From a virus (Duplodnaviria > Caudoviricetes): 64,000 nucleotides of DNA. Position numbers and translations under genes: made by a program. Shown here in pieces: positions 43,077-62,412 of this stretch (position 1 is its first letter; each line of letters begins with the position of its first letter). The stretch lies in the IMG/VR virus record IMGVR_UViG_3300006620_000007; one strand, 5' to 3'. Below the pieces are notes generated by a model, which worked only from the letters and a program-made list of their open reading frames with translations, did no database searches and had not been told where the DNA came from.

Positions 43077-43526
43077 TTATGCGTTAGCGAAATCGTCATC
43101 ATCAGTACCTGATAAGACGTCATCGTCACCCGCTTCTTCAACTTGTACTTTACTGTCGTTGTTTGCAGTACTAAAGTTCCATGCAATTGACGTTCCAGTT
43201 AAAGCGTTAGAACCAGTACCATCTGGTGAAATGATTGTTGCTTTTCTTCCAGAAATCTTAGAAATTTGATAAGTTTCTGCGTCATCACCTTTAACAGTGA
43301 TTGCCATTTCAGTACCAGTAAGTGCTGTTGCTAATTTACCTGTTGTTAAGAAACGATCGTATGTAGTTCCTGGTGTACCGATTGCCGCTACACGAAACTT
43401 CTTCGCTCCTAATTGTTTAACAATATAACCTTCAGTAACAGCAGAGCCGTTATGAAAGTCTACCTTGATTTCGTTGCCACCTGCTGTAGGTACTCCGAAA
43501 AATCTTTTATTAATTGGTCTTCCCAT
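43077..43526 (-). CDS. Hypothetical protein, possibly capsid-associated
   Basis: MGRPINKRFFG..., GYIVKQ.G.KKF.V; strong SD; near the major capsid gene. Confidence 0.55.
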   Translation of the reverse strand: MGRPINKRFFGVPTAGGNEIKVDFHNGSAVTEGYIVKQLGAKKFRVAAIGTPGTTYDRFLTTGKLATALTGTEMAITVKGDDAETYQISKISGRKATIISPDGTGSNALTGTSIAWNFSTANNDSKVQVEEAGDDDVLSGTDDDDFANA

Positions 43527-43618
43527 TTTGTTTTCTCCTATAAAGTAGTCCTATCCGGGTTCTATCCGGTACGCAGTTGGTATTCTGCATAAGTCCGCCT
43601 TGCGGCACACTATCTGAC
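43527..43618 (-). promoter_or_regulatory. Structured 5' leader (candidate cis-regulatory RNA)
   Basis: After TAAATA (43624-43629): GCC-GCAA-GGC (GNRA loop), TATGCAG-N8-CTGCGTA, CCGG-ATAGAAC-CCGG, then SD AGGAG. Confidence 0.55.
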
Positions 43619-43626
43619 ACAAGTAT

Positions 43627-44046
43627 TTATCTAATAGACAGAACTGGAGAATATTTTGGCTTTGTTGCTATATTGATAAATTCACGTACAAAGTCAAATC
43701 TCAGTGCTAATAGTTCAAATATTTCTATGTCTAAATTGGTTGTAGCAAGGTTGTAACTGCTTTTTCCTATATTAGAATAATAATCAACGCTCATACCATA
43801 ATCGGGAAATACGCCTGTAACAAAAAGACACGTGTCACCCAGTTCTTTTGCTGATAATCTATAAGGTTGCTTCAATGTGAGATATGCTTCTGCGAATGTT
43901 TTTTCTGGAAGGAAATTTGGCTTGTCTAATTTGTCTGCAAGAAGCATCACTACATACGCTTCAACTTCTACGGGAAGTTCGTAACCTGTAGTTGACTGTG
44001 CGTCTTTGACCAAGTCGTAAAAGGCCGTTGTGTATTCGTCCTTCAT
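43627..44046 (-). CDS. Hypothetical helical protein (bacterial-type unknown family); start reassigned to ATG at 44046
   Basis: EAYVVMLL, ELGDTCLF.TG.FP, VDYY..IGKSSY; TAAATA (44052-44057) lies 5 nt upstream of the ATG. Confidence 0.6.
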   Translation of the reverse strand: MKDEYTTAFYDLVKDAQSTTGYELPVEVEAYVVMLLADKLDKPNFLPEKTFAEAYLTLKQPYRLSAKELGDTCLFVTGVFPDYGMSVDYYSNIGKSSYNLATTNLDIEIFELLALRFDFVREFINIATKPKYSPVLSIR

Positions 44047-44070
44047 ACAAGTATTTATCGGGGAAAACAA

Positions 44071-44298
44071 CTATAACACTACTCGGGAGGCCTTGCTGTG
44101 AACTCACCTCCAACTTTCGATAAGCAGATCACATCTGAATTTTGCAAGGTTTAGATATGATACCTACTTCCAACCACCTCCATCTAAACCGAGCCACTTG
44201 GCCGCTTAAAAGACTTTAGTGTGCATTACGCCCCTGCCGAAGCGTTATTCTGCCACAAGTGCTAAGAGTTTATAACTCTCTTAGTTTGTGTTAAAGTT
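44071..44298 (-). ncRNA. Candidate structured ncRNA (~225 nt) with its own sigma70-type promoter
   Basis: No substantial ORF; stems 44148-44156/44182-44190, 44125-44137, 44262-44284, 44228-44245; ends pair (44074-44079/44288-44293). Confidence 0.55.
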
Positions 44299-44304
44299 AA
44301 TATT

Positions 44305-44333
44305 AATATAACATTATTTGCAGAAAAAAGCAA
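44305..44333 (-). promoter_or_regulatory. Sigma70-type promoter TTGCTT-N17-TATATT with extended -10 TG
   Basis: -35 at 44328-44333, -10 at 44305-44310, 17-nt spacer. Confidence 0.6.
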
Positions 44334-44372: not shown

Positions 44373-44402
44373 AAAAAAAGGGCGACCTAAGCCGCCCTTT
44401 TT
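44373..44402 (-). terminator. Intrinsic terminator of the major capsid gene (possibly bidirectional)
   Basis: AAAAAAAGGGCG-ACCTAAGC-CGCCCTTTTT: GC stem flanked by A/T tracts. Confidence 0.85.
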
Positions 44403-44423: not shown

Positions 44424-45587
44424 TTAACTGAATGTTACACCTGTAACTGATACACGTGCCAAGTAGTCTGCCGCATTACCAAGTGATGATGCTGTGTTGT
44501 TTAACTCAACATAACCATATCTTGTCATGAATGAAACTACAGGCTCAAATGTACCTGGATCCAACACAACGCCTGAAGACATTAGCGGAATGTATGGGCA
44601 ATAGAATGCCGCCGCATCTGCTTCTGATGTTCCTTTGTATCCAACAAGTACGTCTGTACTGTCTGTTGCATAAGCGTCTACGTATACTTTCATAGCGCCG
44701 TTTAATGTACCAACAAGTTTAGTGTTAGTAGGTGCTTCAAAAGTTCCTTCAGTTGTTCTTGCGAACGCTGAAGTTGTAGCAGACTGAAGTACTGTTAACG
44801 TATGCGGTGATACCACTGCAAAGTTACCAGCGCCACGTCTTGTACGCTGTGCGATCTTGTTAGCCGCTCTGTTAATCATTACAGCAAGTGCCGCATGTTC
44901 GTCACCGACGAATGTAGCAGTTCCTGATACAGCAGTTTGATCGTACTGTACATCTGATTCAGCCGCGCCAGCCAAGTTACGTAAAGAAGCAAGAACTTCT
45001 TGGTCGATTTCAGCAGTAATTTCTTGTGCTAAAGCCGCCATAATTTCCGCTTCAACGTCGATACCCTGTTGTGCTTGTGCATCTTGTGCAGATTCAAAAG
45101 TCCAACGAGCACTTAACTTACGTGTTTTCGCTTCAACTGTTTGTTTTAAGATCTGAATTGACAAACGCTTACCTGCGTCACCTTCAAGTGCCGCTGTAGC
45201 CGCCGCCTTATCAGTAGATCCACCACCTGAATAGCCTAAGCCAATTTTGAACGGTGATAGAGCCTCTTCGCCTGCAGTCACATCATCTAATGTGTCTGAG
45301 TAACGAACTCTTAATGTGTGGATTTGACCCACTGGTCCTGTCATAGGTTGTACACCAACGATTTCGTTAGCGATAACTGTAGGCATGACCCTTCTTATTA
45401 CTGGTAGGATAACTCTATTTAAAGTTGCAACATTACCGGCAGAAGTTGCACCTGCTGTAGCCGACTCAGCCAAGTATTTCTTGGTGTTGTCAAGCGTAGC
45501 AGACATAACAGACTTCTTATTGCCTTGTAGGCCTTCAAGTAATGCGCTCTTAGTTTCCTGCCATCTACTTTCTAATAGTTCTGACAT
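44424..45587 (-). CDS. gp23: Major capsid protein, T4 gp23-like
   Basis: LPVIRRVMP..IA.EIVGVQPMTGPVGQIHTLR, VEAKTRKL.ARWT.E.AQD, EITAEIDQE, FYCPYIPL, F.P...FMTRYG. Confidence 0.95.
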   Translation of the reverse strand: MSELLESRWQETKSALLEGLQGNKKSVMSATLDNTKKYLAESATAGATSAGNVATLNRVILPVIRRVMPTVIANEIVGVQPMTGPVGQIHTLRVRYSDTLDDVTAGEEALSPFKIGLGYSGGGSTDKAAATAALEGDAGKRLSIQILKQTVEAKTRKLSARWTFESAQDAQAQQGIDVEAEIMAALAQEITAEIDQEVLASLRNLAGAAESDVQYDQTAVSGTATFVGDEHAALAVMINRAANKIAQRTRRGAGNFAVVSPHTLTVLQSATTSAFARTTEGTFEAPTNTKLVGTLNGAMKVYVDAYATDSTDVLVGYKGTSEADAAAFYCPYIPLMSSGVVLDPGTFEPVVSFMTRYGYVELNNTASSLGNAADYLARVSVTGVTFS

Positions 45588-61407: not shown

Positions 61408-62412
61408 CTATAACTCGTTGTAAATGTTTAATAACGTTTGCTTATTATAGTTGTCTGAATCAATAGCATTAATTTCTTCTGCAACAATTTGATCTACACT
61501 TTCAAACTTTGTAATATCAATATCGCTGTTTATTTCGTCATCTTGTTGACTTGGAATTAATGTAAGTTCTCTACAACTGTAGTTTCTCATAAATTCTTCT
61601 TTAATAAAACTTGCTTCTTCATAACTAATTGGAATGTCAAGTGTAACTCTAAGATACATCTTACTTTTTAATAGTGTATCTTTTTGATCAATTAGTTGAC
61701 TCAGTTTCACTGTTCTATACTTAGGACAATCTTCCCAGTCAAGATACTGTGGCTCTCCGCCATGTTCTAATATCATCATACCACGTTTATCATCCCATGC
61801 ATCTGCATAGTTGTGTGGAAATGCATTTCCGATATATGTTACATTACCTTGTGTTTGTCTTTTATGAAAGTGTCCACTAAACACATAATCTTGATGTACA
61901 AAATGTTTAGATTGTAATTCTCCTGTGTCTGGCATTTGTACCATTGCATTCATATAGAAATTAGGAAGTTCAAAATGACCAAACATATACTTACTTGTAA
62001 TCTTAGGAATCTTTTTCCATTCTTCTCCAACAAGCCACGGAACCATTGTGCTGTCTTCGATTGTTGTAATTTCATCAATTACAGTTACACCGTCGATGTG
62101 TTTTGCAAATTCTACACTCTGGATATCTCTTTTGTCTTTGTAATATAGATCATGGTTACCAGGAAAGTAAAAGAACTGTTCAAATGCTTTACCAAGTTTT
62201 TCAAGACAACGGATTGAATAATCCATTGTAACAATGTTTAGACTATTTCTATTGTGATGCCAGTCACCCATGAAGATTCCTGTTTCACAACCATTTTCTT
62301 TTGCCTTGGCAATATACCAATCTACAAAATCTTCACAGTCTTGATTATGGGCCACTGAATTGGACTTTAGTCCAAAGTGGATATCCGTGAATACTGCACA
62401 TTTTTTAAACAA
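61408..62412 (-). CDS. gp47: Recombination endonuclease nuclease subunit, gp47/SbcD/Mre11-like (TTG start)
   Basis: DIHFG, GDWHH, GNHD, GHFE, SGHFH metallophosphoesterase motifs. Confidence 0.93.
   Translation of the reverse strand: MFKKCAVFTDIHFGLKSNSVAHNQDCEDFVDWYIAKAKENGCETGIFMGDWHHNRNSLNIVTMDYSIRCLEKLGKAFEQFFYFPGNHDLYYKDKRDIQSVEFAKHIDGVTVIDEITTIEDSTMVPWLVGEEWKKIPKITSKYMFGHFELPNFYMNAMVQMPDTGELQSKHFVHQDYVFSGHFHKRQTQGNVTYIGNAFPHNYADAWDDKRGMMILEHGGEPQYLDWEDCPKYRTVKLSQLIDQKDTLLKSKMYLRVTLDIPISYEEASFIKEEFMRNYSCRELTLIPSQQDDEINSDIDITKFESVDQIVAEEINAIDSDNYNKQTLLNIYNEL

What the first reader, a model, noticed from the sequence alone, without database searches (positions are those of the whole stretch)
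44071..44333. Stand-alone ~225-nt structured ncRNA under a host-type promoter inside the late capsid region
Seen: after the capsid terminator, TTGCTT-N17-TATATT points into a region with no substantial ORF. The predicted start coincides with a strand that pairs with the 3' end (TAACAC/GTGTTA), enclosing at least five stems. Two Shine-Dalgarno-like GGAGGTG copies (44105-44111, 44175-44181) have no associated gene; one lies in the loop of a 9-bp stem. I do not recognise tRNA, tmRNA, RNase P, SRP or 6S features. Inference: an early phage RNA, perhaps a decoy for ribosomes or GGA-binding proteins, or an anti-defence RNA.
Basis: partly seen in the sequence, partly recalled or inferred. Interest (0 to 1): 0.72.

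Follow-up and report, generated by a model that had tools for sequence, protein, structure and literature searches.

The report
Remodelled manA-type phage RNA gene
The flagged stretch is a real folded RNA gene of an uncultured giant phage; it is a remodelled relative of the known 'manA' RNA (job unknown, builds RNA-only cages in the test tube) that has swapped out one whole domain and so escapes the standard RNA database.

Summary
The RNA is real. 24 distinct homologues (73-100% identical) keep the fold with 19 pairs changed on both sides. The same host-type promoter precedes it throughout; no ORF is conserved. It is not a new class: it is a manA (RF01745) relative that Rfam misses in this window. 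Rfam's only hit on a 73%-identical homologue is manA at 22.9 bits (cut-off 55.2); covariance models match in both directions; related phages carry classical manA in the same slot behind the capsid gene. It keeps the manA core but replaces the three-hairpin domain (L5-L7 kissing loops) by one hairpin, adds a terminal stem and has no terminator. The Shine-Dalgarno/GGA decoy idea fails: both GGAGGUG copies are paired helix strands that vary with compensation. Homologues sit before four unrelated genes, mostly with their own promoters, so it is most likely a free-standing, self-associating scaffold RNA. Expression and function are untested.

The parts
44424..45587 (-). Gp23-type major capsid gene (context; upstream neighbour)
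   Evidence: PF07068 E 3e-97, phrog_138; 66-70% identical to GAP32/BF/Vibrio 2.275.O-like jumbo phages
44375..44402 (-). Intrinsic terminator hairpin of the capsid gene (A and U tracts on both sides)
   Evidence: listed on +; U8 tail on - strand visible
44305..44333 (-). Sigma70-type promoter: -35 TTGCTT, 17 nt, TG-extended -10 TATATT
   Evidence: sequence; conserved before homologues and before other manA types in this slot; activity not tested
44074..44298 (-). manA-related ncRNA, about 225 nt (5' end inferred from the -10 box, 3' end from the terminal stem)
44288..44293 (-). P0 5' strand; pairs with 44074-44079 (terminal stem, not in the Rfam manA model)
   Evidence: 5-10 bp stem with different sequences in all 23 full-length homologues, register chosen per sequence
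44262..44284 (-). P1 hairpin (manA 5' hairpin)
   Evidence: 5 of 7 pairs change on both sides
44256..44260 (-). P2 5' strand; pairs with 44081-44085 and closes the core junction
   Evidence: 3 of 5 pairs change on both sides
44223..44256 (-). P3 arm: manA signature GUGGCAGAAUAA, hairpin 44229-44244, UAAUGC; loop 44233-44238 can pair with 44123-44128
   Evidence: 4 two-sided pairs; same signature in Rfam manA hits of 103-110 bits; L3-P8 pairing invariant here, covarying in subtype B
44175..44221 (-). Remodelled P4 domain: P4a, AAA/GGA internal loop, P4b, one hairpin (44192-44203) and unpaired GGUUU (44186-44190), in place of manA's three hairpins P5-P7; holds GGAGGUG copy 1 as a paired strand
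   Evidence: 6 two-sided pairs in P4a, P4b and the hairpin; found independently by RNAalifold; unaligned in the Rfam manA alignment
44117..44173 (-). P8 arm with loop L8; 44148-44152 can pair with GGUUU and 44144-44149 with L9
   Evidence: upper helix 99.5% paired with one-sided changes only; the loop pairings are invariant, so possible but not shown
44086..44111 (-). P9 hairpin (GGAGGUG copy 2 is its 5' strand); invariant 16-nt loop L9 with GCAAG(G) at 44091-44096
   Evidence: A-U to G-C change in 8 of 24; aligns with manA P9
44052..44058 (-). T4-type late promoter box ATAAATA of the next gene, 6 nt before its ATG
   Evidence: one of 11 such boxes on the - strand, mostly just before late genes
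43627..44046 (-). 139-aa viral hypothetical protein (downstream neighbour; has its own late promoter; follows the capsid terminator without any RNA in L070)
   Evidence: no Pfam or PHROG family; only unnamed viral clusters in the Atlas; L070 context

Best explanation
A free-standing, accessory phage RNA gene of the manA lineage, forming a subfamily that Rfam does not detect. Shown: host-type promoter element, covarying fold, homology of the core (P1, P2, P3 signature, P8, P9) to manA, replacement of the three-hairpin domain by one hairpin, mobility as a promoter-plus-RNA cassette. Inferred: host sigma70 polymerase makes it from early in infection although it lies among late genes; with no terminator, the read-through transcript is trimmed back to the terminal stem P0, giving a stable RNA of about 225 nt; it folds around the manA core with an L3-P8 long-range pairing and self-associates through loop-loop pairs (L8-L9, and GGUUU-L8 in place of the lost L5-L7 contact) into small closed oligomers, as other manA RNAs do in vitro. 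Most likely job (weakest step, about 0.3): an abundant multivalent scaffold or sponge that binds a host or phage protein in the infected cell through the invariant core. Odds by step: manA homologue 0.92; trans-acting rather than cis-regulatory 0.8; oligomerises 0.5.
For: Covariation: 99.6% of cells paired, 19 two-sided pairs, 0 of 500 shuffles, slid controls 39-51%; G-U one-sided changes and folding energy favour the - strand in 24 of 24. Homology: Rfam-wide scan of homologue L301 (L219 sequence, 73% identical) gives manA as sole hit, 22.9 bits, E 9e-4, and it is the only manA match in that 307-kb genome. Model R1 (this subfamily only) puts its ten best hits, 13-36 bits, on manA-type RNAs, eight at Rfam manA coordinates. 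Model R2 (classical manA picked by capsid synteny) ranks this stretch first in the window, 14.2 bits, E 0.0013, and ten homologues as the ten best hits in 81 kb. Slot: 28 of 80 capsid loci carry a manA-type RNA here, of three exchangeable kinds, with the same promoter. Free-standing: homologues precede the 139-aa gene, an 87-aa gene, an SSB gene and a ClpP-like gene, the first, third and fourth with their own promoter in between; five subtype B copies face a convergent gene. L3-P8 pairing covaries in subtype B (C-G 7, U-A 3, A-U 1) and between L110 and L121. manA oligomers via L5-L7', L8-L9', L3-L8' contacts: bioRxiv 10.64898/2026.07.01.735769.
Against: No terminator follows, unlike most classical copies in this slot, so a discrete 3' end is inferred. 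The three long-range pairings in this subfamily never vary on both sides and several other invariant pairings are equally possible. The L5-L7 interface, used in both published pentamer types, is absent. The window copy itself gets no Rfam manA hit at E up to 10, and R2's margin in the window is small (14.2 against 11.9 bits). The single-sequence minimum-energy fold is 14 kcal/mol below the covariation fold without its pseudoknots. The cages are in vitro only and no manA function is known.
Confidence: 0.6

Rival explanations
1. A cis-regulatory leader or riboswitch, as manA is catalogued: the early transcript runs through the RNA into the 139-aa gene and a switch between the P4b/P8 fold and the 9-bp alternative stem controls read-through.
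For: Weinberg 2010 lists manA as a cis-regulatory riboswitch candidate (PMC2864571). No terminator separates the RNA from the next gene. An alternative 8-9 bp stem is mostly retained. In L091/L216/L220 a start codon lies close behind the RNA. True glutamine riboswitches occur in neighbouring positions of related phages.
Against: No expression platform: no terminator or ribosome site overlaps the fold. The next gene has its own late promoter and is nearly leaderless; it occurs without the RNA in L070. Four unrelated downstream genes, and convergent genes behind five subtype B copies. Most classical copies in this slot end in their own terminator.
Confidence: 0.12
2. A monomeric stable RNA of the manA lineage: the long-range pairs form within one molecule, and the job (binding a protein or small molecule in the invariant core) needs no cage.
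For: The L5-L7 intermolecular interface is lost. Subtype B has a variable L8 and L9 with no conserved complementarity. The core survives at least four different peripheral domains, which points to the core rather than the assembly as the selected unit.
Against: L8 and L9 are invariant and complementary over 5-6 bp in all 24 homologues at the positions that kiss between molecules in manA_A0F1; L9 also holds a self-complementary 8-10 nt stretch.
Confidence: 0.2
3. A prohead or packaging RNA working like phi29 pRNA: a kissing-loop pentamer ring on the five-fold portal vertex.
For: manA RNAs build pentamers by intermolecular kissing loops, as pRNA multimerises (PMC4201828). The commonest slot is right behind the capsid gene.
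Against: Patchy: 29 of 48 capsid loci with at least 1.3 kb downstream have no such RNA there, and the two isolates with the closest capsid have no manA match genome-wide (sensitivity limited). A third of homologues sit far from head genes, next to SSB or ClpP-like genes. T4-type terminase motors work without RNA (own knowledge).
Confidence: 0.05
4. A decoy for ribosomes (Shine-Dalgarno mimic) or for CsrA/RsmA-type GGA-binding proteins.
For: Two GGAGGUG copies 70 nt apart.
Against: Both are paired strands of covarying helices and are not kept as sequence. No GGA sits in a hairpin loop; the third GGA is absent in 9 of 24 homologues. The 7-mer occurs 9 times in the window.
Confidence: 0.03

Closest known systems
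manA RNA motif (Rfam RF01745; Weinberg et al. 2010, PMC2864571; cryo-EM in Ren et al. 2026, bioRxiv 10.64898/2026.07.01.735769)
   Same: 5' hairpin P1, closing helix P2, GUGGCAGAAUAA-hairpin-UAAUGC arm, P4-P8-P9 order, U-GGAGGU...CCUCC type P9, about 200-225 nt, T4-like aquatic phages, same genomic slot and promoter as classical copies in related phages, possible L3-P8 and L8-L9 pairings.
   Different: Three-hairpin P5/P6/P7 domain with GGUGGU/ACCA kissing loops replaced by a bulged helix with one hairpin; extra terminal stem P0; no terminator; longer invariant L9; scores far below the Rfam cut-off (22.9 bits at best, cut-off 55.2; none for the window copy); context is not a 5' UTR of metabolic genes.
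ROOL and GOLLD RNAs (Kretsch et al. 2025, PMC12286853)
   Same: Phage-borne, stand-alone, pseudoknotted ncRNAs of unknown function that form RNA-only cages in vitro.
   Different: Three to four times longer, unrelated fold, no Rfam match here; typically in tRNA islands, whereas 24 of 25 loci checked here have no tRNA.
phi29 prohead RNA (pRNA)
   Same: Small phage RNA that multimerises by intermolecular kissing loops.
   Different: No Rfam match; essential and universal in its phage group, whereas this RNA is accessory and mobile; different phage lineage.
CsrB/RsmZ-type sponges
   Same: Stand-alone sRNA with GGA-containing motifs.
   Different: Those carry many GGA motifs in hairpin loops; here three GGA motifs, none in a hairpin loop, none invariant.

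Membership tests
manA RNA (RF01745) | Score at or above the Rfam gathering cut-off (55.2 bits) | tested here: not met
   No hit in the window; 22.9 bits for homologue L301
manA RNA (RF01745) | Statistically detectable homology to manA | tested here: met
   Sole Rfam hit on a 73% homologue, E 9e-4; reciprocal covariance models
manA RNA (RF01745) | 5' hairpin P1 followed by closing helix P2 around a multiway junction | tested here: met
   P1 5 and P2 3 two-sided pairs; aligned to the Rfam consensus
manA RNA (RF01745) | Conserved P3 arm: GUG..GAAUAA, hairpin, UAA | tested here: met
   Identical signature in 103-110 bit manA hits; covarying here
manA RNA (RF01745) | P4 encloses three hairpins P5, P6, P7 with complementary GGUGGU and ACCA loops (L5-L7 kissing pair) | tested here: not met
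   Covariation shows one hairpin inside P4; this part is unaligned
manA RNA (RF01745) | P8 arm and 3' hairpin P9 directly before the P2 3' strand | tested here: met
   P9 aligns to the Rfam consensus, P8 only by position
manA RNA (RF01745) | L8-L9 and L3-L8/P8 loop pairings | tested here: inconclusive
   Fully complementary but invariant in this subfamily; L3-P8 covaries in subtype B; loop numbers mapped to the preprint by helix order, figures not seen
manA RNA (RF01745) | Lies in the 5' UTR of sugar, nucleotide or photosynthesis genes (catalogued cis role) | tested here: not met
   Four unrelated downstream genes, mostly with own promoters
manA RNA (RF01745) | Forms pentamer-based closed oligomers in vitro | not testable with these tools
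   needs SEC or cryo-EM
CsrB/RsmZ-type sponge | Several conserved GGA motifs exposed in hairpin loops | tested here: not met
phi29-type pRNA | Present in all members of the phage group and bound to the prohead | tested here: inconclusive
   Patchy in the slot and not found in two isolates; prohead binding not testable
tRNA, tmRNA, RNase P, SRP, 6S and other Rfam families | Match to the family model | tested here: not met
   only terminator-driven weak hits outside the RNA
small protein gene | ORF kept in frame across homologues | tested here: not met
   No ORF of 15 aa or more is shared; one-base indels at two columns

The most novel reading that the evidence does not exclude
This one-hairpin subfamily builds an RNA-only ring or cage of a new geometry inside infected cells, using GGUUU-L8, L8-L9 and L3-P8 contacts in place of the L5-L7 interface, and that assembly has a direct role in the phage cycle (a compartment or sponge against host defence, or a pRNA-like ring at the portal of a T4-like jumbo phage).
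Probability: 0.1. Interest if true: 0.85.

Novelty: new variant of a known kind. Interest (0 to 1): 0.45.

Why it matters
manA has been an orphan riboswitch candidate since 2010 and was shown in 2026 to build RNA-only pentamers, decamers and a 60-mer cage, with no known function. This subfamily is a natural domain swap: it keeps the core, drops the L5-L7 interface used in both published pentamer types, and is invisible to Rfam. It therefore (1) marks the core as the conserved, probably functional unit, (2) gives a direct test of whether assembly is what selection keeps, (3) adds to the case that manA is a free-standing phage gene and not a gene-leader switch, and (4) shows that the family is undercounted: at least three further subtypes seen here fall below the Rfam cut-off. 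It does not reveal the function.

Tried and rejected
Rfam at gathering and E-value thresholds on the window stretch: no family. ARAGORN: nothing. blastn against phage isolates: only 29-39 nt chance matches. Exact pattern in GTDB genomes: none; a relaxed pattern gave 38 hits, three with weak R1 scores and none clearly of this subfamily. R2 in a filtered genome search missed L087's copy, so the negatives are weak. Rejected: the single-sequence minimum-energy fold; RNAalifold's pairing of columns 49-54 with 176-181, since columns 50-52 change on both sides with 78-80; a small ORF; SD or CsrA decoy; + strand RNA. Selection caveat: L110, L121, L145, L161 and subtypes B and D were fetched with the shared 5' signature, so their R1 scores are biased upwards; L003, L010, L012, L026, L060, L066 were fetched by capsid synteny only and score 13-20 bits against a background of up to 13. 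Literature: no paper found on freshwater-2 or on manA subfamilies. The host is unknown. No protein-complex or fold jobs were run: not relevant.

Full report
Setting. The window is part of a T4-like jumbo myophage genome. The capsid gene (44424-45587, -) is Gp23-type and 66-70% identical to Vibrio phage 2.275.O, Serratia phage BF and Cronobacter phage GAP32; a relative with a homologous RNA has a 307-kb contig. Host and whole genome are not available. The finding lies between the capsid terminator (44375-44402) and a 139-aa hypothetical gene (43627-44046) that has its own late box at 44052-44058.

Observation. The promoter-like element, the terminal TAACAC/GTGTTA pair, the two GGAGGTG copies and the lack of a real ORF are as described. 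The - strand folds better than all 200 shuffles (z -3.18). Rfam and ARAGORN give nothing on the stretch.

Homologues. Capsid-anchored and pattern searches of viral and metagenome contigs gave 24 distinct copies, 73-100% identical. Conservation starts at the -10 box and ends at the terminal stem. RNAalifold and my own pair counts agree on P1, P2, the P3 hairpin, P4a, P4b, one inner hairpin, upper P8 and P9: 99.6% of cells paired, 19 pairs changed on both sides, 0 of 500 shuffles as high, slid controls 39-51%. The sequences are related, so the shuffle count is not a probability, but several pairs take three to five pair types. A terminal stem of 5-10 bp and changing sequence exists in all 23 full-length copies. 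One-sided G-U changes and folding energies favour the - strand in all 24. No ORF is shared and one-base indels occur.

What it is. In related phages the same slot holds Rfam manA hits (L003, L066, L060, L064, L010). A census found a manA-type RNA there in 28 of 80 capsid loci (19 of 48 with at least 1.3 kb downstream): 12 classical, 14 of a second kind (L012 type), 2 of this kind, nearly all behind the same promoter. The 5' signature of the window RNA is letter for letter that of manA RNAs scoring 103-110 bits. Model R1, built from this subfamily alone, gives its ten best hits on manA-type RNAs (13-36 bits); six of these loci were chosen by capsid synteny and not by pattern. The reciprocal model R2 ranks the finding first in the 64-kb window (14.2 bits, next 11.9) and ten homologues as the ten best hits in 81 kb. 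Rfam's own manA model finds homologue L301 as the only match in its 307-kb genome and as the only family of 4227 (22.9 bits, E 9e-4), aligning P1, P2, P3 and P9 and leaving the middle unaligned. Homology to manA is therefore well supported (about 0.92). Membership of RF01745 as defined is not: the score is far below the cut-off, and the three-hairpin domain with its GGUGGU/ACCA loops is replaced by a bulged helix with a single hairpin. I file it as a manA-related subfamily. A second group of 11 viral RNAs (subtype B) has the same one-hairpin architecture, no Rfam hit, R1 scores of 47-67 bits and its own covariation (11 two-sided pairs).

Long-range pairs. In subtype B the P3 loop pairs with the P8 bulge with three pair types at the central position, and classical L110 and L121 differ by a compensating change in an L3-P8 pairing. 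In the window's subfamily the equivalent 6-bp pairing (44233-44238 with 44123-44128) is possible in all 24 copies but has only a one-sided change. L8 can pair with L9 (5-6 bp, about -9.7 kcal/mol as a duplex) and with the GGUUU of the new domain. These are invariant, and other invariant pairings are possible, so they rest on positional homology with the L8-L9' and L3-L8' contacts reported for manA by cryo-EM (bioRxiv 10.64898/2026.07.01.735769). I mapped loop numbers by helix order and could not see the figures.

Free-standing or leader. Copies occur in four contexts: behind the capsid gene before the 139-aa gene with its late box; between a 52-aa and an 87-aa gene; before an SSB gene with a second sigma70 promoter in between; and before a ClpP-like gene, again with its own promoter. 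Five subtype B copies face a convergent gene. The 139-aa gene follows the capsid terminator without any RNA in L070. So promoter and RNA move as one cassette, independent of the next gene. Most classical copies in the slot end in a terminator; this subfamily has none and has the terminal stem instead. I infer trimming of a read-through transcript to that stem, as for other stable bacterial RNAs with paired ends (own knowledge).

Mechanism. Best reading (0.6): an accessory, trans-acting RNA made by host polymerase, folded on the manA core, and self-associating through rewired loop contacts into small closed oligomers that act as a multivalent scaffold or sponge. Fold, homology, domain swap and mobility are shown; transcription, processing, oligomer and target are inferred, and the specific job is the weakest step. 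Rivals: monomeric core function (0.2), cis-regulatory leader (0.12), pRNA-like ring (0.05; patchy, and no manA match in the two closest isolates), SD or CsrA decoy (0.03; both copies are paired and vary with compensation).

Novelty. manA is known (PMC2864571), its in vitro cages are in a 2026 preprint, and this scan's earlier notes report stand-alone manA genes behind capsid genes in at least seven other genomes (my reading was recorded before that look-up). Verdict: real feature, new variant of a known kind, interest 0.45.

Noticed in passing
window 43524-43609 (-): Rfam freshwater-2 RNA (RF02980, 72.9 bits) in front of the 149-aa MGRP gene, behind a late box at about 43630; present in many related loci.
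   Followed up: partly
L003 4733-4780, L012 4734-4781, L016 4735-4782, L010 5166-5213, L028 4754-4803, L047 4736-4782: Glutamine riboswitch aptamers (RF01739, 43-60 bits) behind the capsid gene, in the loci read leading into a short ORF just upstream of the manA promoter.
   Followed up: no
L112, L113, L116, L117, L131, L135, L141, L143, L164, L176, L185, L203 (alignment A2): Subtype B: manA-related RNAs with the one-hairpin domain, a 4-bp terminal stem, an AGUA/GAA loop-E-like motif in P8 and a covarying L3-P8 pseudoknot; no Rfam hit.
   Followed up: yes
L132, L149, L157, L169, L148, L186, L197, L205; also L114, L150, L155: Further RNAs with the manA 5' signature but a longer, different middle, mostly in tRNA arrays; no Rfam ncRNA hit, R1 scores 14-24 bits, in three cases with a second hit about 230 nt downstream.
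   Followed up: partly
L012 4923-5132, L013, L014, L023, L026, L031, L032, L040, L042, L047, L069 and others: A second common manA kind in the capsid slot (14 of 80 loci); those scanned stay below the Rfam cut-off; most have promoter and terminator.
   Followed up: partly
window 44098-44107 (-): The invariant start of L9 is self-complementary over 8-10 nt with two G-U pairs, a possible homodimer kissing site; the duplex is weak (-3.8 kcal/mol for 8 nt).
   Followed up: partly
window 9220-58276 (-): Eleven ATAAATA late boxes on the - strand, most just before late genes (49277, 44058, 43630, 42043, 41142, 37852, 25078, 19377, 10486); the 139-aa gene starts 6 nt after its box with no ribosome site, so it looks leaderless.
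   Followed up: partly
L001-L080, downstream of the capsid terminator: This position is a hot spot for exchangeable genes: many unrelated small ORFs, a tRNA in L032, and by eye an IscU-like gene in L004 and L020 (from memory, not tested).
   Followed up: no
L273 472-569, L292 652-842, L281 80-315: Weak R1 matches (14-26 bits) with the manA 5' signature on short contigs of bacterial MAGs (Verrucomicrobiota, Bacteroidales, Sulfuricurvum); possibly mis-binned phage DNA.
   Followed up: no
window 61974-62175 (-): Second-best R2 hit (11.9 bits) lies inside the 334-aa metallophosphoesterase gene and lacks the manA motifs; treated as chance.
   Followed up: partly
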